DNA of 53,383 nt. It comes from Escherichia phage FXie-2024a. The first letter of the stretch is position 1, and each line of letters begins with the position of its first letter. The position numbers and the translations under genes are program-made. Positions 1 to 53,383 of the stretch are shown in pieces. The stretch lies in the sequence record PP107930.1, one strand, 5' to 3'. The notes under the pieces were generated by a model. That model was not told the origin of the DNA. It ran no database searches and was given only the letters and a program-made list of their open reading frames with translations.

Positions 1-127
1 TTATAATATTGCCACAATTCTAGTCTCGTTAATATTGAACAAATTCGAGTCTCCAATATCGTAACAATTCTAGTCTCTTTAATTCTGTAGCAATATTCGA
101 AATAAAAAAAAAATTATAAAAAAAAAA
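1..127. repeat. Left copy of 127-bp terminal direct repeat
   Basis: Bases 1..127 are identical to 53257..53383. Contains internal sub-repeats (CAATTCTAGTCTC twice) and two A-runs. Could be a true terminal redundancy or an assembly overlap. Confidence 0.6.
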
Positions 128-170
128 TTATTTCATAGTCGGATTTCTGTTCGAACAAATTTCGGCGAGA

Positions 171-221: not shown

Positions 222-400
222 ATGTACCATTTGGTTTTGAACTTTACGCATTCCTAATATTACTCTTAATATTGTAGCAATATTGGGAATAAGTAATATT
301 TAACTTACTTATTTTATTCTAGCTTAAAGAGAAACGACGCTAACGCATCGAATCTCTTCTCGCATATTAACTGGCAAACGTCAGCCTTCACCATATCCAA

Positions 401-2430: not shown

Positions 2431-3477
2431 TTAAGCCACTCGTTTCCAGAGGGCGTAGTAGTGAACGGAGTTGGTTACATCAAATGCCGTACCGCTTCCG
2501 GTTGAGGTTGTGGTGTTATTATTTGGGCCACCTGTAGTGAGGGCAGTCCCACCAGTGTTAGCAGCACTAGAGCCACCTGACGTGCCTTTAAAGTTGGGCA
2601 AGTCTACCTGGTGGAAGTGTACCCCACTTTCGCTAGCCGTACCATCCATGTCATGGTAGTGGTCGCCAGCCCACTCAACGTTACGCGTACCCACAGAGCC
2701 AGAGTTGGAGCCAGCAAACAGTACAGGACTGACGTTAGCGTTGTTACCAAACGTAGCTGCGTGGGTGTGGTTCCCGTTAGTTGTGGTACGTCCCGTCACT
2801 GCGTGGGAGTGTGCACCGTTGGGCGTTGAGTTGTGAAGTGGATGCTTGTGGTCTATGGCATGAGTATGCGTCATAGAGTGGGTGTGAGAGGCAATACCGT
2901 GCGTGTGGTTCTGCATTCCGTGAGTGTGTCCAGGAATGTTTGGCACAGCAAGAGTTACAGTATCAGAGCCACCAGTTGAGCCAATCTGACCTTCGGTTGT
3001 ACCAGCTTCGGCAGAGGTAGCAGCACGGACAGAACGACCATCGACAATTTGTTCCCACACAGTTCCTGTGAAGGAGTTGTTTGGGTTGGTGGCATTCTCG
3101 AACTTTAACACAATTCCAATTGGGTAGATGGCGTTGTAGATATTGTTGGCATTAATCAGTTCTCTCCACGGGGTCCAAGTCCGGACCCCAGCTCCCTGGT
3201 CTTGAGAACGAATCCACATACGGAGGTTGCCGAAGTTTGTATATCTCTGTATACAGTTGTCAGAAGTACCGGCATGGGTGAGAAGAACTTCCAAGTTGCC
3301 AGCTTCGGCACCAGCAGGGTATCCATTTGCCACTGTTGCGTTTGCGTTCTGGTTCTGGGGGAACGTACCTACATTATCTCTTCCCCACATATCGTTGATG
3401 TTCTTGGTCCCCAAGGAATCTACACTTTTAGCATAGTGTTCCTGGACCAGCGCATCTAAAGAATAACCTTTAGCCAT
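2431..3477 (-). CDS. Tail fiber protein, distal tip with His-x-His repeats
   Basis: 348 aa; run of HTHGMQNHTHGIASHTHSMTHTHAIDHKH resembling metal-binding HxH motifs of T4-type fiber tips; Gly/Thr-rich C-terminus. Confidence 0.6.
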   Translation of the reverse strand: MAKGYSLDALVQEHYAKSVDSLGTKNINDMWGRDNVGTFPQNQNANATVANGYPAGAEAGNLEVLLTHAGTSDNCIQRYTNFGNLRMWIRSQDQGAGVRTWTPWRELINANNIYNAIYPIGIVLKFENATNPNNSFTGTVWEQIVDGRSVRAATSAEAGTTEGQIGSTGGSDTVTLAVPNIPGHTHGMQNHTHGIASHTHSMTHTHAIDHKHPLHNSTPNGAHSHAVTGRTTTNGNHTHAATFGNNANVSPVLFAGSNSGSVGTRNVEWAGDHYHDMDGTASESGVHFHQVDLPNFKGTSGGSSAANTGGTALTTGGPNNNTTTSTGSGTAFDVTNSVHYYALWKRVA

Positions 3478-23803: not shown

Positions 23804-25849
23804 TTACATCCATGCCGAGTAGTTGGCACTTGGGCCGGAGAATTCGATTGCAACCATATCTGAGACGTTATCGACGCAATCGTCGTGCCCAGTACCGCTA
23901 CCCAAAGAAGTGAATCCAAGTATTTCACGTCTAACGTGGTCGATGTGTTCATGACCAGCAGGGAAGAATATTCTCTTTTGTGAGAAATATGGGATTGCGT
24001 TAAGGAATCGAGTTACCTTGTCGTTACCATTTACACCATCACGGGGTAGAGGTAAGACTCGGACACTCCCATCTCTAATAAATTGTTGGTTCAAGAATTG
24101 TCCAGCAGACTTATCTTCCATGTACAATGCACGAGGAATACAGCCTACACACTTCAAGTCCAACTTGTTGCATTTGTTCCAGAAGTCGATGATAGCAGTC
24201 TTGAGTTCTGGAGTTTCAAACTTACCAAGCATGATATCTAAACAATAAACATCTCGCTCTTTAGTCACGCCCCAATGCTTCAGGACCGAATAATCAGAAT
24301 AAGATTTGGCAGTTGATGCCGTATCCGCTGTGATAAAACTTCTGACTATGCGACTTCTGTCGAAAGCATCCGGTTCATACTCTTGCCACCAATCTTCTTT
24401 AACGAGGCCGTGGCCTTGTGCAGATGGGTCGCCAGCATACTGTGAATTGTATGTGTATGGGTTGGACTCTTTCATTGCCTCCAGAGAATCTAAACTCTTA
24501 CGTGAAGGCCACAATGCAGACTTCTCTTCCTTCCTATTCAAATCATACAGAATCGGGATAGCATGAGTGTAGTTCTGCTTCTTAATTAACTTGTCATACC
24601 ACTGAGCACTCCCAACTCCTTTCTCGATAATGGCTGGGATGTTGAGATAGTGGTACTTATCAGACGAGCCACCACGAAGTATATATCCAACTAAATCTTG
24701 GTCATGCACCCTCTGCATAATGATAACCATTGGTGTACGAGCACACTTAATTTGATTACCACGAGAGTCGGTTATGCAACCATCATTCGCAAGACGGGAC
24801 ATAAAGGTGTTATCGAATCGGTCGTTAATCTCCGCTCGAACTGTGTCTGAATATGCATCTTTAGGCTTGATTACGTCATCGACCACGAAGCAGCCGGAAT
24901 AGTTTGCAACCAACAGGCCAGCACCTTTACCAGTTAGTTTACCACCAGTAGGAACAGCGTGCATTACACCAGCTTTGGTCGTACCCCAACGCTCAAGAGA
25001 ACGTTTGTTCGGGTCTATTCTCACCTTCGGGAATATGCGTTGGAACAGTGGGTCCATCATTACTGCACGGATATAACCACTTGATTCAAGAACAACGTCT
25101 TCTGCATACGAGGTGATAATGTTATGGCTTGATTCATTGTGGCAAAATGAATACAAGGGCAATGCAATACTCATAAGCTGGGTCTTAGAGTGTCGTGGAG
25201 GAATGGTCACTATTAAGCGGTCAATCTCACCATCAACAACCTTCTGACCAACACTGAATATTACATCGTGAAAGTCTTGTGCCTGGAATGGGAATCCCAT
25301 TTGAATATGGAACTGCCATTTACCAAAGGCTTCGAAACTTTTCATCAAGATTTTGCGAACACGTTCTGCAACCTTGGCAGGGATTACAGTTGGGTCCACG
25401 TTGTGTGGGTCATGCAGAATCTTGTCTACAAGTTCTTCGGTGTTATCGTGTTCAGAGTTTGGCTCCTCTAATGTGGAACCTGCAACACGGTCAGTAACAC
25501 CTGCTTGAATACCTTTCTTCAACTCGTCTGCATAGGCAGTTGAGTCTTTCTTATCGCCAGAGCGAAGACGCTCAAGTTGTGCTTTGAAAACGGAACGAAG
25601 AACCGCATCGTTTTCCAGACCCTGGCCTTCTAACTCTGCTTGAATTTGTTCTTCATAGCTGTCAACTATTGCAGTATTTTCTGAAATATATCGACGGAGC
25701 AATGGCAAAGATAGAATACAGAATCTCTCTCTTGAGACTTTTAAAACGTCACCATAGTTCTTAACGAGATAGCTGGCAACTGTATCGTTAAACTCTGGTC
25801 CGAGGTCATCAGTCTTTGACATTGATTCGTTCTCTTTGGTTTTAATCAC
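23804..25849 (-). CDS. Terminase large subunit
   Basis: 681 aa; deviant Walker A-like PPRHSKT; C-terminal Asp-rich nuclease-like region (GHDDCVDNVSD); upstream of portal. Confidence 0.6.
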   Translation of the reverse strand: MIKTKENESMSKTDDLGPEFNDTVASYLVKNYGDVLKVSRERFCILSLPLLRRYISENTAIVDSYEEQIQAELEGQGLENDAVLRSVFKAQLERLRSGDKKDSTAYADELKKGIQAGVTDRVAGSTLEEPNSEHDNTEELVDKILHDPHNVDPTVIPAKVAERVRKILMKSFEAFGKWQFHIQMGFPFQAQDFHDVIFSVGQKVVDGEIDRLIVTIPPRHSKTQLMSIALPLYSFCHNESSHNIITSYAEDVVLESSGYIRAVMMDPLFQRIFPKVRIDPNKRSLERWGTTKAGVMHAVPTGGKLTGKGAGLLVANYSGCFVVDDVIKPKDAYSDTVRAEINDRFDNTFMSRLANDGCITDSRGNQIKCARTPMVIIMQRVHDQDLVGYILRGGSSDKYHYLNIPAIIEKGVGSAQWYDKLIKKQNYTHAIPILYDLNRKEEKSALWPSRKSLDSLEAMKESNPYTYNSQYAGDPSAQGHGLVKEDWWQEYEPDAFDRSRIVRSFITADTASTAKSYSDYSVLKHWGVTKERDVYCLDIMLGKFETPELKTAIIDFWNKCNKLDLKCVGCIPRALYMEDKSAGQFLNQQFIRDGSVRVLPLPRDGVNGNDKVTRFLNAIPYFSQKRIFFPAGHEHIDHVRREILGFTSLGSGTGHDDCVDNVSDMVAIEFSGPSANYSAWM

Positions 25850-46772: not shown

Positions 46773-46802
46773 AAATGCTCCAAGTTGATTAATAATATTC
46801 AG

Positions 46803-46829
46803 CAACCACTCTCATTACAAAAGTGGTTG
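46803..46829 (-). terminator. Hairpin downstream of paralog A
   Basis: CAACCACT / AGTGGTTG stem 6 nt after the stop at 46836; same element repeated at 47101..47127. Confidence 0.35.
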
Positions 46830-46835
46830 AGGAAA

Positions 46836-47072
46836 TTATTTAACTTCTTCCCACACAAACAGGAATCCAACTACAGGCACATTTTCACCAATATTCCAAT
46901 ACGGACGGCCACGCCCATTGCTTCGCATTCGATTCCCACTATTGGTTATAGTAATGTATGGCTGTAATTCACCATTTACTTCAAGGTCAATCAAATCACC
47001 CTCAAGTTCATCTCCAACCTGAACTGATTTAGAACCTATTGGTGCTTTAATACAAACAAACTTCTTTGCCAT
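46836..47072 (-). CDS. Small paralogous protein A (78 aa)
   Basis: Shares PYWNIGE...VP...W.EEVK C-terminus with the 83-aa neighbour. Confidence 0.5.
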   Translation of the reverse strand: MAKKFVCIKAPIGSKSVQVGDELEGDLIDLEVNGELQPYITITNSGNRMRSNGRGRPYWNIGENVPVVGFLFVWEEVK

Positions 47073-47100
47073 TTTTGATACTCCGATTAATAATATTCAG

Positions 47101-47127
47101 CAACCACTCTCGCTATAAGAATGGTTG
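47101..47127 (-). terminator. Hairpin downstream of paralog B
   Basis: CAACCACT / ATGGTTG stem with the same flanks as 46803..46829. Confidence 0.35.
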
Positions 47128-47133
47128 AGGAAA

Positions 47134-47385
47134 TTATTTAACTTCTTCCCAGGTCCAAATACTACCTTTTAATGGGACTTTTTCGCCAATGTTCCAATAG
47201 GGTCTGCCATTGACAGCCATTCGGTTTCCAACATCCGAAATAATTATTCGAGTGTCGATTCCGTGTTTTCGCTGTATGTTGATAAGTTCTCCTTCAATCA
47301 CATCTCCAACTTTTGGAGTATGTTCGGATGAAGAGGTTGATTTCACACATTTAAACTTTGTCATTGCAATAAACCTTGTTCGCAA
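47134..47385 (-). CDS. Small paralogous protein B (83 aa)
   Basis: Paralog of 46836..47072 (KFKCV, VGNRMAVNGRPYWNIGEKVP, WTWEEVK). Confidence 0.5.
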   Translation of the reverse strand: MRTRFIAMTKFKCVKSTSSSEHTPKVGDVIEGELINIQRKHGIDTRIIISDVGNRMAVNGRPYWNIGEKVPLKGSIWTWEEVK

Positions 47386-47588
47386 ATGTCTGCAAACTCC
47401 GCACGATGGTCACGCTGCCATGTCCAGAATGCACCATTCATCGGAACGACAGCACCTTTACGGAATGCCGGAGAAATGCTTTCAGCAGATTTGGTTACTT
47501 TAAATTCCAAAGGCGAAATAGCTTCACCTTCAATGATTAAGCCAACTGGAACGTAGTCTTTGTTGGAAGCAACACATTTAAATTTCAT
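47361..47588 (-). CDS. Small paralogous protein C (75 aa)
   Basis: KFKCV start and W.W motif suggest a distant third paralog. Confidence 0.4.
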   Translation of the reverse strand: MKFKCVASNKDYVPVGLIIEGEAISPLEFKVTKSAESISPAFRKGAVVPMNGAFWTWQRDHRAEFADICEQGLLQ

Positions 47589-49383: not shown

Positions 49384-49632
49384 TTAGAATCCCTCGTTAT
49401 ACCCAGCAGTGTTACGAAGAGTCACTTCAACATCTTCGTCATCAGGAATTAATTCGACTTCAATATTGACAACAATATTGTCACTAAAAGTACATGCCTT
49501 ACTTGAATCAAAGAACTTTACAGCATTGTACTTATCTGACTCATTTACTTTAATCCACTTCACAGAACGAACAGTGAAGATTTGACCATCTTGCAGGTCT
49601 TTGAAACAAGCAGCTTTAATCACAGTATCCAT
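49384..49632 (-). CDS. First early protein after the iteron region
   Basis: About 82 aa from MDTVIK (ATG 49630..49632) with GGAG ribosome-binding site; preceded by a long hairpin leader. Confidence 0.4.
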   Translation of the reverse strand: MDTVIKAACFKDLQDGQIFTVRSVKWIKVNESDKYNAVKFFDSSKACTFSDNIVVNIEVELIPDDEDVEVTLRNTAGYNEGF

Positions 49633-49656
49633 TTTATTCTCCAAAGTTAAAGGAAA

Positions 49657-49722
49657 ACTCCCTACAGAACGATTGTGGAGGTCTTGTCTTACCTCAATCC
49701 ACCTTAAAGTTGTAGGGAGTAT
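49657..49722 (-). promoter_or_regulatory. Structured leader hairpin before the first early gene
   Basis: 10-bp inverted repeat ACTCCCTACA / TGTAGGGAGT enclosing an inner stem, followed by a U-run, a ribosome-binding site and the ATG. Confidence 0.35.
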
Positions 49723-49779
49723 GTGACACAACAAGTGCCGAAAACTACAATGATTAGCTTGGAGACATAATCTCTCTAA

Positions 49780-50650
49780 AATCTGTCACAGAATTTACAG
49801 AGATTTGGTCTTATTCACATGCAACTAATGATAAATGAACATGCTTAATTGCAACTAATTCATCTGCCAAATAGACGAATTTTGTCACAATCAAACATGC
49901 ATCATTAATTATAGGTTTACACCTATCTTGGAATGTATTTGGCACATCAAGAAGTGGCGCAATAGGTACGGAAAACCGACCATGTACAGCATAATAAAAC
50001 CAATTAAATAAAGGGTTTTATCCCAATATTGTCACAATATTTACATGCGATGATAAAGCCTTCGCTTGGCTGGAAGCCAGTATTCATGCGGGTTGCAAGA
50101 ATATTGGGTCATTGCTGATACAGCTATTACATGCGAAATTGGCACAAATACTGTTACAAAATTAACATGCCAGATTGGCAGACGATTGTATCTTCGAGGT
50201 GATTAGTCCTCTAACAATTCTGCCACATTCCAACATGCCAATTTGTAGCAATATTTACATGCCATACTGCGACGCAATTGTCACAATATTTGTTGCTCAA
50301 AATCGGGGCGGCTTCTGCGTGCAAACGAGAGGCTTAGTCCGACTTCTTCTCTTCTTTCGATTTCTGATTGAAAGAAAGAAGCATGTCCAAAAGTTCCAAT
50401 ATTACCAAAGTTATCTCCCGGCTTGTGGGTGGGCCTTTATAATAGGAGATGGAGCAATATTGTCGCAATTGAACATGCCATAGGTGAAGTACAAGTTTCG
50501 GATAGATATTCCTACTCTGTGTCATGGTTGCTGGAACTATAGGTGGCCTACCTAGGGAGTTCAATGATTGCCACATCATTACAACACTGTAACTCAAAGC
50601 TGACATGCTGAATGTTTCTAGAATGATTCAACATTACATGCGGAATATTT
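49780..50650. repeat. Iteron-like repeat cluster (candidate origin or promoter array)
   Basis: ORF-free ~0.9 kb with about 10 to 12 copies of a 18-19 bp motif near TTGTCACAATATTTACATGC (examples 49882..49900, 50029..50048, 50151..50170, 50221..50238, 50243..50262, 50460..50478). Confidence 0.55.
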
Positions 50651-50721
50651 CTCCGTATTCTTTTACTTCACATCCAACTAATGTAAGAGTTGTGTAACGA
50701 TATTGAAGACAGCTCTTAAAT

Positions 50722-50752
50722 TAATTGAAACAAGAAAAGGGAGCCGAAGCTC
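50722..50752 (-). terminator. Intrinsic terminator after the RNA polymerase operon
   Basis: Minus strand reads GGGAGCTTCGGCTCCC followed by TTTTCTTGTTTC, just after the 66-aa ORF stop at 50760. Confidence 0.5.
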
Positions 50753-50759
50753 CCAAGTA

Positions 50760-50960
50760 TCAGAACGGTATCTCTGTATCAAAGTACCCAGAATTGTGTA
50801 AGAATGAGTGCAATAATACATGCGATTCTTGCTTATATTCTGCTAACAATTCTAAGAAGTCTTTAGTCTCCTCCACTGTAGGACGAGATAAGTTGCTCAT
50901 GTCACAGGTGTGATGAGGATTGAAACAGTTTTCGATTTGATTGATTTGTTGAATGTTCAT
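50760..50960 (-). CDS. Hypothetical small protein
   Basis: 66 aa ORF immediately downstream of the RNA polymerase gene. Confidence 0.4.
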   Translation of the reverse strand: MNIQQINQIENCFNPHHTCDMSNLSRPTVEETKDFLELLAEYKQESHVLLHSFLHNSGYFDTEIPF

Positions 50961-51009
50961 TATAAGTCTCCAAGTTTGTGGTCATCCTTGACCCAATTAG
51001 TGTCACTGA

Positions 51010-52950
51010 TTATTGACAGAAGTAGTAAGCGTGTTCGCTCATCAGAAGCTCTTCAGTTACGATGTTCTCGTGATACATCTGAATGCCGCCAAGTTGCTTA
51101 GACAGATTCTCGAATTGATTGTTGGTTACAAAGATTTCAACATATGCTGCACGAATAACTTCCATCATACGTGGAGCATCAGCTAAGCAGCAACGGAAAC
51201 AATCATGGATTGAAGTGAAGCCACGAAGACCAGCTTCTTTAGCTTTAACTGCAACAGTACGAGCAACAAGTGCATCAATACCTTGAATGTAGTTAACAAC
51301 GAAGGTGCGTTTAAATTCTTCCTTAGTTGGATTGGATTCACGAATGGTCCAAGGCTTGTTCTCCTGAATCTGGCCAAAGATAACACGAGTTTGGCTGTCA
51401 ACACGGATGCTGAATGCCTCACAGATTTCACGAGATGGGAAGCAAGGCTTCATTACAACCTGACCATCAGTGTGACGATATGTGATGTACTCTTTGTTGA
51501 GTTCAACACAACGGTTGTATGCAGCATCAGCAGCTTTCTCGATGAACATGTTAATCTTAGCACCCAATGCGTTATGGATTGCTTCTACACACAGTTCAGC
51601 AAATGCCTCAGCTTTCTCCATAGGAATCTGGAGAGATGCAGTCATGTATGCAATGAAGTCAGAAGAACCAGTCAATGCAGCTTTACCACCACCGTATTGA
51701 ATAGCCATATACGGAGTTTTGATAAACTTACGACCAGCTTTCGGATTCAAGAATTCATCCATGATTTCAGGAGATGGTTTCATTGAAGAACGGTCGAGCA
51801 GCTTCAACAGTTCACGAAGACTCAACTGGTATGGGTCAGATGCTTTAGTCTCAGAATCAACCAGACCTGTTGCACGAGCCATTTCCATGTTACCAGCAAT
51901 GAATGCCAGATATTGAGTACCAGAACATTTAGCATCTAAACCAAAGCCTACACGAGAATCGCACTCACCTGTAGTCTCAAACTTGAACCAATCCAGAGCC
52001 AGACGAACATAAGTGAATGGCTTAGAAGGACGTTCAGATTTGTCCATGTTCATCATGCGAGCAAGTGAACCAGCTGGATTTGATGCAACATAAGTTAATC
52101 GCTTAGCAGAAGCCCATTCACCACCAGAAATATCTTCCAGCTCTGCCATGAACATGTTGTATGCAATGGTAGTAGAACCATCTTCGTTAAACTTCTTAAC
52201 GATGTTCTCAACATTGTGAGAATACAAGCAACGAGCAAAGTCAGATGATTGTGGGTTAGGACCAGCACATGCTACATGATACAGACGACCACGGTTATCA
52301 GCAAAGTAGTCAGAGTACAGTGTATCCTGAGTCATCATTGCTACAGCATTGTTCCAAACATGGAGTTCAGTCTGGATTGCTTCTGGCATCTGCAAGCCAC
52401 CATAAGTACGCTGCTCAATCATGGACTGGATGATGCGAACCATCTCAGTCTCCACATGGTACTCAGTATCTTGCAGGAATTCGATTGCAGCTTTCAGAGT
52501 CTTGGATGGCTTAACTTTGCCACCTTTAACGAAAGGCTTGCGACGAGATTCAGTGGTAACACGCTCAGTGAATGGCACTGAGGTATCTTTGGTTGTAACC
52601 AGCTCAACCCATGCATCAGTTTGTTGGAACGACTTATCTTCGTTCATGGTGATGAAGCCAAAGTGTTTAGCCAGACCAATCAGGTTGATAGCTGGGTCAA
52701 CATAGTGCATTGCTTTCAAATCGTTGTTATAACGGTTGGCATCAGCAATAGAAGCAGAAGCCAGTTCAACCATCGAGATGGCAGGTACAACATCGTCACG
52801 AGTGAAAGACGTCATCATCTTGAAGATGGCTAACGCAGCAATAGCACAAGTCTGAGGCTGCATATAGTTCTGTTTCTCTTTGGCACGGTATACCAGAGCA
52901 GTGATAGCAGGAACAACGGATTTGATAGTTTGAGTAGAGATAGTAGTCAT
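51010..52950 (-). CDS. Single-subunit DNA-dependent RNA polymerase, compact form
   Basis: 646 aa from MTTIST (GGAG ribosome-binding site). T7-RNAP-like motifs: DNRGRLY, motif A GLDAKCSG, motif B KTPYMAIQYGGGK, motif C SIHDCF. N-terminal domain much shorter than T7 RNAP. Confidence 0.8.
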   Translation of the reverse strand: MTTISTQTIKSVVPAITALVYRAKEKQNYMQPQTCAIAALAIFKMMTSFTRDDVVPAISMVELASASIADANRYNNDLKAMHYVDPAINLIGLAKHFGFITMNEDKSFQQTDAWVELVTTKDTSVPFTERVTTESRRKPFVKGGKVKPSKTLKAAIEFLQDTEYHVETEMVRIIQSMIEQRTYGGLQMPEAIQTELHVWNNAVAMMTQDTLYSDYFADNRGRLYHVACAGPNPQSSDFARCLYSHNVENIVKKFNEDGSTTIAYNMFMAELEDISGGEWASAKRLTYVASNPAGSLARMMNMDKSERPSKPFTYVRLALDWFKFETTGECDSRVGFGLDAKCSGTQYLAFIAGNMEMARATGLVDSETKASDPYQLSLRELLKLLDRSSMKPSPEIMDEFLNPKAGRKFIKTPYMAIQYGGGKAALTGSSDFIAYMTASLQIPMEKAEAFAELCVEAIHNALGAKINMFIEKAADAAYNRCVELNKEYITYRHTDGQVVMKPCFPSREICEAFSIRVDSQTRVIFGQIQENKPWTIRESNPTKEEFKRTFVVNYIQGIDALVARTVAVKAKEAGLRGFTSIHDCFRCCLADAPRMMEVIRAAYVEIFVTNNQFENLSKQLGGIQMYHENIVTEELLMSEHAYYFCQ

Positions 52951-53006
52951 TTGTAAGTCTCCAAGATTGTGTATGATTTGAATGAAACGGATTATAATAG
53001 CGTAGC

Positions 53007-53024
53007 CATTACACAATTCACGTC
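53007..53024 (-). promoter_or_regulatory. Copy of recurrent 18-bp motif, about 60 nt upstream of the RNA polymerase ATG
   Basis: Plus strand TTCACGTCCAACTAATAT; family consensus TTCACATCCAACTAATGT. Confidence 0.35.
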
Positions 53025-53181
53025 CAACTAATATCACAAACCTGTGCCATTGTTACAACAGCACGGAGACTTTGACCTTGACTCATAAGCGAAGCGCCTA
53101 ACTTGGTGTTGATTGAAAGCCGATAGGCTGTAGGAAAAAGTTGGGGTAGGGACCGTATTTTAAGTCCGATAGGACGTTGGG

Positions 53182-53256: not shown

Positions 53257-53383
53257 TTATAATATTGCCACAATTCTAGTCTCGTTAATATTGAACAAAT
53301 TCGAGTCTCCAATATCGTAACAATTCTAGTCTCTTTAATTCTGTAGCAATATTCGAAATAAAAAAAAAATTATAAAAAAAAAA
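53257..53383. repeat. Right copy of 127-bp terminal direct repeat
   Basis: Identical to 1..127; the window ends exactly at the repeat end. Confidence 0.6.

What the first reader, a model, noticed from the sequence alone, without database searches (positions are those of the whole stretch)
49780..50650. Dense iteron array in the ORF-free region just downstream of the RNA polymerase gene
About 0.9 kb without credible ORFs carries roughly a dozen copies of an 18-19 bp motif (TTGTCACAATATTTACATGC and variants). The hexamer ACATGC is heavily over-represented here. Related TGTAGCAATATT-type words recur in the terminal repeat (88..99) and at 270..281. The location mirrors the T7 primary origin, which sits right after its RNA polymerase gene. 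The array could be a replication origin, a promoter cluster or binding sites for a phage regulator.
Basis: seen in the sequence. Interest (0 to 1): 0.7.

Follow-up and report, generated by a model that had tools for sequence, protein, structure and literature searches.

The report
Repeat array flanking phage terminal-repeat boundary
A non-coding kilobase just after this phage's RNA polymerase gene holds about a dozen same-strand copies of a 23-bp unit ending in ACATGC, and in related phages the edge of the roughly 3-kb terminal repeat falls in the middle of this array, so it probably marks where the genome end is cut rather than being a simple origin or promoter cluster.

Summary
ACATGC occurs 11 times on the + strand in 49780-50650, against 0.18 expected, and once on the other strand. 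About seven copies carry the full unit AATATTGTCACAATATT-ACATGC.

The window is a Chaseviridae (phiEcoM-GJ1/ST32-like) genome with all genes on the - strand, so every unit is antisense to transcription. The array is conserved as invariant islands in every Chaseviridae relative I examined. Its hexamer changes with phage lineage, not host: ACATGC, ACATAC, TCATAC, TCACAC.

In seven relatives the inner boundary of the 2.6-3.4 kb direct terminal repeat (DTR) maps into the largest gap of the array, at window ~50341. A shorter array with the same 5' module but a different hexamer lies 100-200 bp outside the other boundary.

The general candidate promoter for the phage RNA polymerase is a different motif (CATTAGTTGGAnnTGAA). 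It has 10 strong copies, all sense and intergenic, and two of them bracket the array.

Best explanation (confidence ~0.35): binding sites for a phage-encoded protein that marks the DTR cut site for concatemer maturation and packaging. Rivals are an iteron or T7-type origin, an operator or polymerase-binding array, and a T5-like injection-stop region. No function was tested experimentally. The closest described analogue is T5 "Repeat Region 3".

The parts
49877..49900 (+). A-type unit GAATTTTGTCACAATCAAACATGC (5' module plus ACATGC)
   Evidence: Weight-matrix score 20.9. TGTCACAA and ACATGC are invariant across the 10-phage alignment.
49821..49844 (+). A-type unit with a degenerate 5' module, ending in ACATGC (hexamer at 49839)
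   Evidence: score 12.2. The hexamer is largely conserved in the alignment.
50025..50048 (+). Best A-type unit: a perfect 17-bp palindrome AATATTGTCACAATATT, then T, then ACATGC
   Evidence: Conserved in nearly all relatives.
50111..50134 (+). A-type unit with variant box CTGATACAG, ending in ACATGC
50147..50170 (+). A-type unit AATACTGTTACAAAATTAACATGC
   Evidence: score 19.5. Conserved.
50177..50229 (.). Conserved imperfect inverted repeat between two A-type units. Its arms TGGCAG / CTGCCA co-vary across genera.
   Evidence: There are 14 distinct versions, each 73-75 nt from the first base of one ACATGC to the last base of the next. 86.6% of cells pair, against 78.4 +/- 1.4 in shuffles (0/500). 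Seven pairs changed on both sides (3/500). Slid controls give 30-51%. Wobble pairs are equal on both strands, so this is not a strand-specific RNA.
50215..50238 (+). A-type unit CAATTCTGCCACATTCCAACATGC, in the most conserved part of the array
   Evidence: score 18.3.
50239..50262 (+). A-type unit CAATTTGTAGCAATATTTACATGC, in tandem 24 bp after the previous unit
   Evidence: score 19.6.
50274..50290 (+). 5' module alone (GCAATTGTCACAATATT) with no hexamer; the last element before the boundary
   Evidence: TGTCACAATATTT conserved.
50336..50346 (.). Inferred inner boundary of the direct terminal repeat (cut site); GTCCGA at 50337-50342
   Evidence: Boundaries of Y2 and PM1 (both repeat copies present in the records) map to window 50341. 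Mangalitsa maps to 50346 and 4HA13 to 50336 (both from PhageTerm annotations). The Faunus record starts at the equivalent of 50345. GTCCGA occurs 9 times on the + strand of the window, and two of those lie at the two inferred boundaries.
50346..50381 (.). Tract just inside the repeat that is pyrimidine-rich on the + strand and purine-rich on the gene strand. In this genus it is part of an inverted repeat.
   Evidence: Purine content of the last 40 nt is 0.68-0.80 in 4 of 7 phages.
50381..50404 (-). Single inverted A-like unit pointing at the cut. Its ACATGC is genus-specific, but the box ATTGGAAC is conserved more widely.
   Evidence: (score 16.0).
50416..50448 (.). Block TCCCGGCTTGTGGGTGGGCCTTTATAATAGGAG, nearly invariant in all genera. 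On the gene strand it supplies the -10 element (TATTAT) of a sigma-70-like promoter whose -35 element (TTGCGA) lies in the next A-type unit.
   Evidence: conservation. (promoter-like site 50468..50439 on the - strand).
50455..50478 (+). A-type unit inside the terminal repeat: CAATATTGTCGCAATTGAACATGC
   Evidence: best score, 21.6..
50585..50608 (+). A-type unit with a degenerate 5' module (..GCTGACATGC), inside the repeat
   Evidence: TTGACATGCTG conserved.
50618..50641 (+). A-type unit with a degenerate 5' module (..ACATTACATGC), inside the repeat
   Evidence: score 14.9.
50667..50683 (-). P1: promoter-like motif CATTAGTTGGATGTGAA on the gene strand, equivalent to 'putative phage promoter 1' in phiEcoM-GJ1
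49814..49830 (-). P2: promoter-like motif CATTAGTTGCATGTGAA, about 85 nt upstream of the first early gene
50730..50754 (-). Intrinsic terminator ending the RNA polymerase / small-ORF transcription unit
   Evidence: Annotated at the same place in SA91KD.
49964..49987 (+). Element C (AGGTACGGAAAACCGACCATGTAC). Two more copies lie at 168-191 and 204-227, near the other boundary.
   Evidence: family D13. AACCGACCA is conserved in all genera. Related GTCGACC elements occur in distant relatives.
5..103 (+). L-type array: four tandem 23-bp units with the same 5' module. Three end in AGTCTC; the fourth ends in CGAAAT. Period 24-26 bp. The array lies 100-200 bp outside the left repeat boundary and is duplicated at 53261-53359.
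53160..53169 (.). Inferred outer (left-end) boundary of the terminal repeat; GTCCGA at 53164-53169 within the palindrome GTCCGATAGGAC
   Evidence: Left ends of Mangalitsa, 4HA13, Y2 and PM1 agree within about 4 nt..

Best explanation
The array is a set of binding sites on duplex DNA for a phage-encoded, sequence-specific protein. Its role is to mark the inner boundary of the long direct terminal repeat (DTR), so that replicated concatemers are recognised and cut there to make the right genome end. In other words, it acts as a pac/cos-like recognition platform.

Each 23-bp unit has two parts. The first is a shared, partly palindromic module (AATATTGyCACAATATT). The second is a 3' hexamer specific to one end: ACATGC around the inner boundary, and AGTCTC in the small array outside the other boundary. 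The uniform orientation would give the process its polarity. The largest gap in the array holds the cut site itself (around GTCCGA), a purine-rich tract and an invariant block.

Shown here: the array, its strand bias and its conservation; its lineage-specific hexamer; the position of the DTR boundary inside it in relatives; and the sister array at the other boundary.

Inferred, not shown: that a protein binds the units, that this protein is part of the terminase or maturation machinery, and that the boundary in this particular genome is the same as in its relatives.
For: 1. In seven relatives the inner DTR boundary falls in the largest gap of the array.
- Y2 (2608 bp) and PM1 (2665 bp) carry both repeat copies in their records, and both map to the same alignment column, window 50341.
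- Mangalitsa and 4HA13 have PhageTerm-based annotations that map to 50346 and 50336.
- The Faunus record starts at the equivalent of 50345.
- In Myduc the boundary at 3202 lies between sites at 3003 and 3304.
- ZPAH14 is a distant relative (about 34% RNA polymerase identity) with a different hexamer. Its boundary at 3373 lies between TCATAC sites at 3298 and 3423.

2. A second array with the same 5' module, strand and roughly 25-bp period lies 100-200 bp outside the other DTR boundary. Element C is also shared between the two regions.

3. The same hexamer GTCCGA sits at both inferred boundaries. It occurs only 9 times on that strand in 53 kb.

4. The hexamer follows phage lineage, not host. 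Aeromonas phage phiA050 has ACATGC while Aeromonas phages ZPAH14 and pAh6-C have TCATAC. This argues for a phage-encoded reader.

5. Hexamer columns are 94% identical and 59% invariant across 10 phages, against 73% and 19% for other columns.

6. Precedents (from my own knowledge): P1 pac has hexamers on both sides of its cut, and SPP1 has pacL and pacR flanking pacC. From a paper read here: T5 has a 1.2-kb untranslated repeat region that straddles its long-repeat boundary.
Against: - No small terminase subunit or DNA-binding domain was identified next to the large terminase subunit or among the early genes, so the reader protein is unknown.
- Twelve or more sites spread over 1 kb is larger than any characterised pac or cos site.
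- The cut has to lie somewhere in non-coding DNA after the polymerase gene, and the array fills most of that space. Co-location could therefore be partly forced.
- Units on both sides of the cut point the same way, and most lie on the unique-sequence side. No known packaging model requires this arrangement.
- One experimental study (PYps23T, PMC8762354) places both repeat ends elsewhere, inside copies of the promoter-like motif.
- The termini of this particular phage were not measured.
Confidence: 0.35

Rival explanations
1. Replication origin. In one version the units are iterons for a phage-encoded initiator. In the other, the region is a T7-type origin in which transcription from P1 by the phage polymerase opens or primes the DNA, and primase sites and accessory sites lie downstream.
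For: - The region sits right after the RNA polymerase gene, as the T7 primary origin does (T7 facts from my own knowledge).
- The annotated replication genes in the relative 4HA13 include a primase/helicase, DNA polymerase, SSB, exonuclease and ligase.
- The units are direct repeats about 23 bp long, all in one orientation, and some are in tandem at 22-26 bp.
- Two arrays flank one gene, as in the P1 plasmid replicon (my own knowledge).
- A promoter-like motif, P1, fires into the array.
- The conserved element C contains TGGTC on the gene strand, a T7-primase-type site, and is found family-wide.
- A purine-rich tract in the P1 transcript could favour R-loop formation.
Against: - The array has no DnaA-box cluster and no strongly AT-rich unwinding element. 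AT content peaks at 75% in 40-bp windows.
- No initiator-like protein was found near the array.
- T7-type origins, as I know them, do not use iterons.
- This reading does not explain why the DTR boundary sits in the central gap in all lineages, or why a sister array flanks the other boundary.
- Spacing is irregular overall.
Confidence: 0.2
2. Transcription control. The units are operators for a phage repressor or roadblock protein, or they are promoter-like sites that bind, pause or titrate the phage polymerase. This could include antisense promoters. The role would be to control expression of the polymerase gene and the switch to early genes.
For: - The 5' module is a 17-bp palindrome in its best copy, typical of sites bound by a protein dimer. 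Upstream parts are more palindromic than shuffles (4.93 vs 4.26 +/- 0.09 symmetric pairs).
- Units lie between promoter-like P1 and P2, and so inside the P1 transcript.
- One unit (50455-50478) supplies the -35 element of a sigma-70-like promoter whose -10 element lies in an invariant block. The first L-type unit overlaps a promoter-like site upstream of the polymerase gene.
- Unit length (23 bp) and the invariant 3' end resemble single-subunit polymerase promoters. The hexamer variants keep a pyrimidine-purine step (WCAYRC).
- According to the ICTV profile, Chaseviridae polymerase promoters have not yet been identified.
Against: - All units are antisense to every gene.
- None lies upstream of a gene cluster elsewhere in the genome.
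- A different motif, with 10 strong sense-strand intergenic copies 30-90 nt upstream of gene starts, fits the promoter role better.
- No enrichment of sigma-70-type sites was found.
- Sixteen sites is many for an operator.
- No helix-turn-helix protein was found among neighbouring genes.
- The link to the DTR boundary would be a coincidence under this reading.
Confidence: 0.25
3. A T5-like injection-stop region. DNA entry would pause after the terminal repeat, which carries the polymerase gene, has entered the cell. The repeat array would hold the DNA until the polymerase or another pre-early product resumes transfer.
For: The architecture closely matches T5 Repeat Region 3. That region is a 1.2-kb untranslated stretch lying mostly in the long terminal repeat and overrunning 270 bp into unique DNA. 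It has nine direct repeats plus inverted repeats and is conserved across T5-like phages. Here the terminal repeat carries the one gene needed first.
Against: - The T5 proposal relies on host DnaA boxes. None is clustered here.
- The lineage-specific hexamer argues against a host reader.
- No two-step DNA transfer is reported for Chaseviridae in any paper I found.
- The T5 signal itself has not been assigned to particular repeats.
Confidence: 0.08
4. A structured or sponge-like non-coding RNA made from P1, with the repeated units acting at the RNA level.
For: The array lies in an approximately 850-nt leader between P1 and the first gene. RNAalifold finds helices in it, some with compensatory changes.
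Against: - No Rfam family matches.
- Conservation appears as short invariant islands separated by spacers rich in insertions and deletions.
- The hexamer's self-complementarity is lost in the TCATAC and TCACAC lineages.
- In the one well-supported helix set, wobble pairs are equally frequent on both strands (10 vs 11). This fits duplex DNA symmetry rather than one RNA strand.
Confidence: 0.04

Closest known systems
Phage T5 'Repeat Region 3' (candidate injection stop signal) at the inner end of the long terminal repeat
   Same: Both are roughly 1-kb untranslated regions that lie mostly at the inner end of a long direct terminal repeat and overrun into unique DNA. Both are packed with direct repeats (nine DRD copies in T5) and inverted repeats, and both are conserved across the family more strongly than many neighbouring genes. 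In both phages the repeat carries the first-expressed genes.
   Different: T5 has paired DnaA boxes, and its proposed reader is the host DnaA protein. Here there is no DnaA-box cluster, and the motif follows phage lineage. The repeat is about 2.8 kb here against 10 kb in T5. The units are bipartite 23-mers, all on one strand. There is no sequence similarity between the two regions, and two-step transfer is not known for Chaseviridae.
pac sites with repeated elements flanking the cut (P1 pac with its TGATCA/G hexamers; SPP1 pacL-pacC-pacR)
   Same: An invariant short motif is repeated on both sides of the site where a virion DNA end is made, and a phage-specific reader is expected. (Facts about P1 and SPP1 are from my own knowledge.)
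   Different: Those sites span 100-300 bp with 3-7 elements and serve headful packaging. Here 12 or more units span 1 kb, the genome has exact long terminal repeats, a second array marks the other end, and no small terminase subunit was identified.
T7 primary origin and the T7 concatemer-junction signals (phiOR/pacB, polymerase pause site)
   Same: The location is directly after the polymerase gene, and a phage-type promoter (P1) fires into the region. The replication genes annotated in a relative are of the kinds used by T7. In T7, transcription signals next to the terminal repeat are needed for maturation. (T7 facts are from my own knowledge.)
   Different: The T7 origin consists of promoters plus a 61-bp AT-rich stretch, with no iteron array. 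The T7 repeat is 160 bp and does not contain gene 1. The T7 pause sequence ATCTGTT is absent from this region. The polymerase here is so distant from T7's that phmmer finds no solved relative.
Plasmid and phage iteron origins (P1 oriR/incA, F, R6K, lambda ori)
   Same: Direct repeats of about 20 bp in one orientation, some in tandem at about two helical turns, and two clusters flanking one gene.
   Different: No adjacent Rep or O-type initiator gene, no DnaA boxes and no AT-rich unwinding element were found. Spacing is mostly irregular, with conserved unique blocks between units.

Membership tests
Iteron-type replication origin | Multiple direct repeats of about 17-23 bp in one orientation | tested here: met
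   Eleven to thirteen units on the + strand, plus four L-type units.
Iteron-type replication origin | Adjacent AT-rich unwinding element and/or DnaA boxes | tested here: not met
   One DnaA-like 9-mer (up to 1 mismatch) lies in the region, at 49811. AT content peaks at 75% in 40-bp windows. A poly-A tract exists only near the other array (100-135).
Iteron-type replication origin | Cognate initiator gene next to the iterons | tested here: inconclusive
   Pfam and PHROG scans of 10 early ORFs and the 66-codon ORF found no Rep, O-type or helix-turn-helix domain. Many are proteins of unknown function.
Iteron-type replication origin | Replication initiates there | not testable with these tools
   Needs marker-frequency sequencing or 2D gels.
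T7-type primary origin | Phage-polymerase promoter(s) followed by an AT-rich region, just after the polymerase gene | tested here: inconclusive
   Position is met. P1 is a candidate promoter only. No pronounced AT-rich stretch follows it.
Single-subunit RNA polymerase promoter cluster | Conserved motif of about 20 bp with an invariant 3' (initiation) part | tested here: met
   23-bp unit. The hexamer is 94% identical across 10 phages.
Single-subunit RNA polymerase promoter cluster | Oriented with the genes it serves and spread upstream of gene clusters | tested here: not met
   All units are antisense to the genes and confined to 49474-50823. The CATTAGTTGGA motif meets this feature instead.
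Single-subunit RNA polymerase promoter cluster | Transcription starts at each copy | not testable with these tools
   I found no transcript-mapping study of Chaseviridae.
pac/cos-type terminase recognition site | Lies at the site where a virion DNA end is generated | tested here: met
   By homology mapping of repeat boundaries from seven relatives to window 50336-50346. Not measured for this phage. PYps23T disagrees.
pac/cos-type terminase recognition site | Repeated short recognition elements next to or flanking the cut | tested here: met
   About eight units lie outside the cut and about four inside it. Related units lie near the other cut.
pac/cos-type terminase recognition site | Bound by terminase (small subunit) and required for packaging | not testable with these tools
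   No small terminase subunit was recognised. The ORFs upstream of the large subunit have no known domain.
T5 Repeat Region 3 / injection stop signal | Roughly 1-kb untranslated, repeat-rich region at the inner end of a long terminal repeat that overruns into unique DNA and is conserved family-wide | tested here: met
   compared with the T5 description.
T5 Repeat Region 3 / injection stop signal | Paired DnaA boxes | tested here: not met
T5 Repeat Region 3 / injection stop signal | Two-step DNA transfer stopping at the region | not testable with these tools
   Needs infection experiments.
Known non-coding RNA family (Rfam) | Match to a curated covariance model | tested here: not met
   The only match is a chance-level miRNA hit (25 bits against a gathering score of 74).

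The most novel reading that the evidence does not exclude
Chaseviridae define the two ends of their long terminal repeat with a modular address code. It uses 23-bp units that share one protein-binding module and carry an end-specific hexamer: ACATGC-type around the inner cut and a fast-evolving hexamer near the outer cut. A single phage protein, possibly the unusually long N-terminal part of the large terminase subunit or the phage polymerase itself, would read these units. This would be a previously undescribed mechanism for specifying and duplicating a kilobase-scale direct terminal repeat. It may also be related in principle to the unexplained repeat region at the T5 repeat boundary.
Probability: 0.2. 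Interest if true: 0.8.

Novelty: new variant of a known kind. Interest (0 to 1): 0.6.

Why it matters
To my knowledge, how phages with kilobase-long exact terminal repeats (T5, SPO1, Chaseviridae) choose and duplicate their ends is still unresolved, and the T5 repeat region has stayed unexplained for decades. This array offers a compact and testable handle on that question. It has an invariant hexamer, a clear polarity, and a cut site mapped to within about 10 bp in several relatives. It also comes with natural specificity variants (ACATGC, ACATAC, TCATAC, TCACAC) that could be swapped between phages. It bears on the statement in the ICTV profile that Chaseviridae polymerase promoters have not yet been identified, because it separates a sense-strand promoter candidate from this antisense array. 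There is a practical benefit as well. Many database records of this family start at arbitrary points or annotate spurious genes across this region, and the array together with the GTCCGA sites would let genomes be oriented and their repeats predicted from sequence alone.

Tried and rejected
- **Rigid 20-mer search.** The pattern TTGYNRCAANNNNNACATGC with up to 2 mismatches gave 4 hits against 2.8 expected. It is too strict because the spacing varies between 13 and 14 nt, so I replaced it with hexamer statistics and a weight matrix.
- **Sigma-70 promoters.** No enrichment was found (8 sites against 10.4 expected). Individual units lack a -10 element at the right distance, apart from the one next to the invariant block.
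- **Known RNA families.** Nothing was found in Rfam.
- **Strand-specific RNA structure.** Rejected, because wobble pairs are balanced between the strands and hexamer self-pairing is lost in other lineages.
- **Hairpin promoters like those of the N4 virion polymerase.** Only about half the units have the palindrome at the expected offset.
- **Host-factor sites.** DnaA boxes are absent. From my own knowledge of their consensus sequences, Chi and Ter do not match either. The motif also differs between phages of the same host genus.
- **T7 class II pause sequence ATCTGTT.** Not present in the region.
- **Primase sites in the units.** The GTC trinucleotide is not kept in variant boxes, so this applies at most to element C.
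- **Search for the reader protein.** Pfam and PHROG scans of four ORFs around the large terminase subunit, ten early ORFs and the 66-codon ORF gave no DNA-binding domain.
- **Comparison of the polymerase with solved structures.** phmmer found no hit.
- **Literature.** The phiEcoM-GJ1 (2008) and Y2 (2011) papers are not held in the library. I found no paper mentioning the ACATGC array.
- **Coding potential.** The ORFs inside the region are not conserved.
Full report
**What the window is.** The region and the whole window match Chaseviridae phages of the phiEcoM-GJ1/ST32 group (Carltongylesvirus) at 85-95% identity. All long ORFs lie on the - strand, so the window is the reverse complement of the usual map. 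The single-subunit RNA polymerase gene is at 51010-53037 on the - strand, and the true start codon is probably the ATG at 52953. The first and last 127 bases are identical. This is most simply the overlap left by a circular assembly, not the biological terminal repeat. According to the ICTV profile, the family has non-permuted genomes with terminal repeats of about 3 kb, and its polymerase promoters "have not yet been identified".

**Checking the observation.**
- ACATGC occurs 11 times on the + strand and once on the - strand in 49780-50650. The expectation is 0.18 (Poisson P ~1.6e-16).
- Genome-wide the hexamer is not enriched (33 observed, 41 expected). The signal is therefore local clustering plus strand bias.
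- Two further copies, at 49492 and 50818, extend the cluster.
- The full unit is about 23 bp, AATATTGTCACAATATT-ACATGC. In the best copy the first 17 bp form a perfect palindrome (50025-50041).
- About seven copies have a recognisable 5' module. The rest have the hexamer with a degenerate 5' part. The spacing between the two parts is 13 or 14 nt.
- A weight matrix trained only on six other species or genera places its 12 best hits in the window all within 49474-50823. Eleven are on the + strand.
- ORFs inside the region are interrupted in relatives, while flanking genes are intact. The region is non-coding.

**Conservation.** In a 10-phage alignment covering Escherichia, Yersinia, Aeromonas, Pectobacterium, Erwinia and Proteus phages, the hexamers and TGTCACAA boxes stand out as invariant islands among spacers rich in insertions and deletions. 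Hexamer columns are 94% identical and 59% invariant, against 73% and 19% for other columns.

Every relative has 7-14 copies, always on the strand antisense to the genes. Most of the distant family members examined, with about 34% polymerase identity, have the same ORF-free kilobase after the polymerase gene, with a strand-specific array in the same orientation but a shifted hexamer:
- ACATAC in a metagenomic contig
- TCATAC in Aeromonas phages ZPAH14 and pAh6-C and in Vibrio phage VPs20
- TCACAC in Shewanella phages Spp001 and SppYZU05

One distant contig (L041) showed no hexamer reaching five copies. The variants are single-step neighbours of one another (consensus WCAYRC). Aeromonas phages carry either ACATGC (phiA050) or TCATAC (ZPAH14). 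The motif therefore follows phage lineage rather than host, which argues for a phage-encoded reader.

**What surrounds the array.** Reading in the gene direction, the order is:
1. Polymerase gene
2. A 66-codon ORF (50960-50760)
3. A strong intrinsic terminator (50754-50730)
4. Motif P1, CATTAGTTGGATGTGAA (50683-50667)
5. Three to four A-type units
6. A block that is nearly invariant in all genera (50448-50416)
7. A purine-rich tract
8. Eight A-type units
9. Motif P2 (49830-49814)
10. The first early gene

P1 and P2 are annotated as "putative phage promoters" in phiEcoM-GJ1 and SA91KD. The same motif has 10 strong copies in the window. All are on the gene strand, and all are intergenic, 30-90 nt upstream of gene starts. 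This matches the eight to nine promoters proposed for this group (and my recollection of the 2008 phiEcoM-GJ1 abstract). The general promoter candidate is therefore a different motif, and the ACATGC array is a separate feature.

**The key finding: the terminal-repeat boundary.**
- The Y2 and PM1 records contain both repeat copies (2608 and 2665 bp). Their inner boundaries map to the same alignment column, window 50341.
- PhageTerm-based annotations for Mangalitsa (3234 bp) and 4HA13 (3120 bp) map to 50346 and 50336.
- The Faunus record begins at the equivalent of 50345.
- In Myduc the boundary (3202) lies between sites at 3003 and 3304.
- In the distant ZPAH14 a 3373-bp repeat ends between TCATAC sites at 3298 and 3423.

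In each of the five relatives where I compared the gaps (Y2, PM1, Myduc, ZPAH14 and the window-equivalent position) the boundary falls in the largest gap of the array. By homology, the repeat in this window spans about 50345-53163, or 2.8 kb, and contains the polymerase gene.

The outlier is PYps23T. Ligation-PCR and run-off sequencing gave a repeat of 2339 bp. Both of its ends fall at the same position inside two copies of the P motif, CATTAGTTGGA|. I cannot explain this. An 11-bp repeat at both ends makes such a junction ambiguous.

**A sister array at the other boundary.** About 100-200 bp outside the left boundary lie four tandem 23-bp units with a period of 24-26 bp, at window 5-103 and duplicated at 53261-53359. 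They have the same strand and the same 5' module. Three end in AGTCTC and the fourth in CGAAAT. In PM1 the corresponding hexamer is GAGCCG, and in Y2 it is CGAATC. This hexamer therefore evolves quickly, whereas ACATGC is fixed across these genera.

The two flanking regions share two other features:
- Element C (GGTACAGTTGACCGACCATGTAC) occurs at 168, 204 and 49964.
- The hexamer GTCCGA sits exactly at both inferred boundaries (50337 and 53164). It occurs only nine times on that strand in the whole window.

**Further anatomy.** Between the units at 50165 and 50233 lies an imperfect inverted repeat whose arms co-vary across genera (TGGCAG/CTGCCA, TGCCA/TGGCA, TGACA/TGTCA, TGACC/GGTCA).
- Over 14 distinct versions, 86.6% of cells pair, against 78.4 +/- 1.4 in shuffles (0/500).
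- Seven pairs changed on both sides (3/500).
- Slid controls give 30-51%.
- Wobble pairs are equally frequent on the two strands.

The balanced wobble favours a symmetry or cruciform-type element in duplex DNA over a strand-specific RNA. Rfam finds nothing in the region.

**Interpretation.** The facts to explain are these:
- A polar array of bipartite units
- A reader that evolves with the phage
- The cut site in the central gap across the whole family
- A related array at the other cut

I think a role in genome-end formation, meaning terminase or maturation recognition, is the single best fit (about 0.35). It resembles P1 pac and SPP1 pac (my own knowledge), where repeated elements flank the cut. 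Architecturally it is closest to T5 Repeat Region 3, a 1.2-kb untranslated repeat region that straddles the long-repeat boundary and whose function is still debated.

The weaknesses are real:
- No small terminase subunit or DNA-binding protein was identified.
- The array is larger than any known pac site.
- Its co-location with the cut could be partly forced by the shortage of other non-coding DNA.

The rivals are as follows:
- **Origin (~0.2).** Position, the kinds of replication genes annotated in a relative, P1 and a conserved TGGTC-containing element speak for it. The absence of an AT-rich element, DnaA boxes or an initiator gene speaks against it.
- **Operator, polymerase-binding or pause array (~0.25).** The palindromic module, the overlap of two units with sigma-70-like promoters and the promoter-like unit size speak for it. 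The antisense orientation and the existence of the P motif speak against it.
- **T5-like injection stop (~0.08).**
- **RNA-level function (~0.04).**

These functions need not exclude one another. In T7, origin, promoter and packaging signals overlap next to the terminal repeat (my own knowledge).

**Novelty.** The non-coding region, P1 and P2, and the repeat boundaries are annotated in public records. I found no description of the ACATGC array, its family-wide variants or its relation to the boundary. The two oldest papers could not be read. I rate it a new variant of a known kind: a repeat array at a genome-end, packaging or origin control region.

Noticed in passing
window 1-127 and 53257-53383: The two ends are 100% identical over exactly 127 bp. 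This is most likely a circular-assembly overlap and not the biological terminal repeat. By homology, the biological repeat is about 2.8 kb (about 50345-53163) and contains the RNA polymerase gene.
   Followed up: yes
window, - strand: 53023, 50673, 49820, 45736, 41634, 41494, 41306, 39124, 31266, 11339: The motif CATTAGTTGGAnnTGAA has 10 strong copies. All are on the gene strand and intergenic, 30-90 nt upstream of gene starts. It is the best candidate for the phage polymerase promoter, which the ICTV profile says has not yet been identified for this family.
   Followed up: partly
window 50337-50342 and 53164-53169: GTCCGA occurs 9 times on the + strand of the window. Two of those sit exactly at the two inferred terminal-repeat boundaries, which suggests a short shared cut-site sequence.
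   Followed up: partly
L011/L012 (Yersinia phage PYps23T), equivalent to window 50673 and 53022: The published 2339-bp terminal repeat of PYps23T begins and ends at the same position inside two copies of the promoter-like motif (CATTAGTTGGA|). Six relatives in five other genera of the same subfamily, plus distant ZPAH14, place the inner boundary about 330 bp away. The difference could be real or an artefact of the 11-bp repeat at the junction. I could not resolve it.
   Followed up: partly
window 50416-50448 with 50439-50468 (- strand): The block TCCCGGCTTGTGGGTGGGCCTTTATAATAGGAG is nearly invariant in all genera. On the gene strand it reads as the -10 element (TATTAT) of a sigma-70-like promoter, TTGCGA-18-TATTAT, pointing toward the early genes. 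It may be a host-polymerase early promoter inside the terminal repeat.
   Followed up: partly
window 50177-50229: A conserved inverted repeat whose arms co-vary across genera (G:C, C:G and A:T at the central pair). It lies in a spacer of constant length: 73-75 nt from the first base of one ACATGC to the last base of the next.
   Followed up: yes
window 50760-50960 (- strand): A 66-residue acidic ORF lies between the polymerase gene and the terminator, inside the terminal repeat. It is conserved at 88% in 4HA13 but absent or replaced in several close relatives. It has no Pfam family. Its size and position recall small host-takeover proteins.
   Followed up: partly
window 46787-46853 and 47085-47151; ORFs 47134-47385 and 47361-47588 (- strand): A 67-nt direct repeat (93% identical) lies near two adjacent ORFs that both hit phrog_18786. 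Together these look like a tandem duplication among the small early genes.
   Followed up: no
window 100-135 and 168-227: Near the left repeat boundary lie a 35-bp run that is almost pure A/T, made of poly-A tracts, and two copies of the palindromic element GGTACAGTTGACCGACCATGTACC. The core GTCGACC/GGTCGG is kept even in Aeromonas, Vibrio and Shewanella relatives and contains a T7-primase-type TGGTC.
   Followed up: partly
window 23804-25849 (- strand): The large terminase subunit is unusually long (681 residues), with about 190 N-terminal residues that have no domain match. No small terminase subunit could be recognised among the three small ORFs upstream.
   Followed up: partly
whole window: ARAGORN finds no tRNA gene. 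Some relatives are reported to carry one.
   Followed up: no
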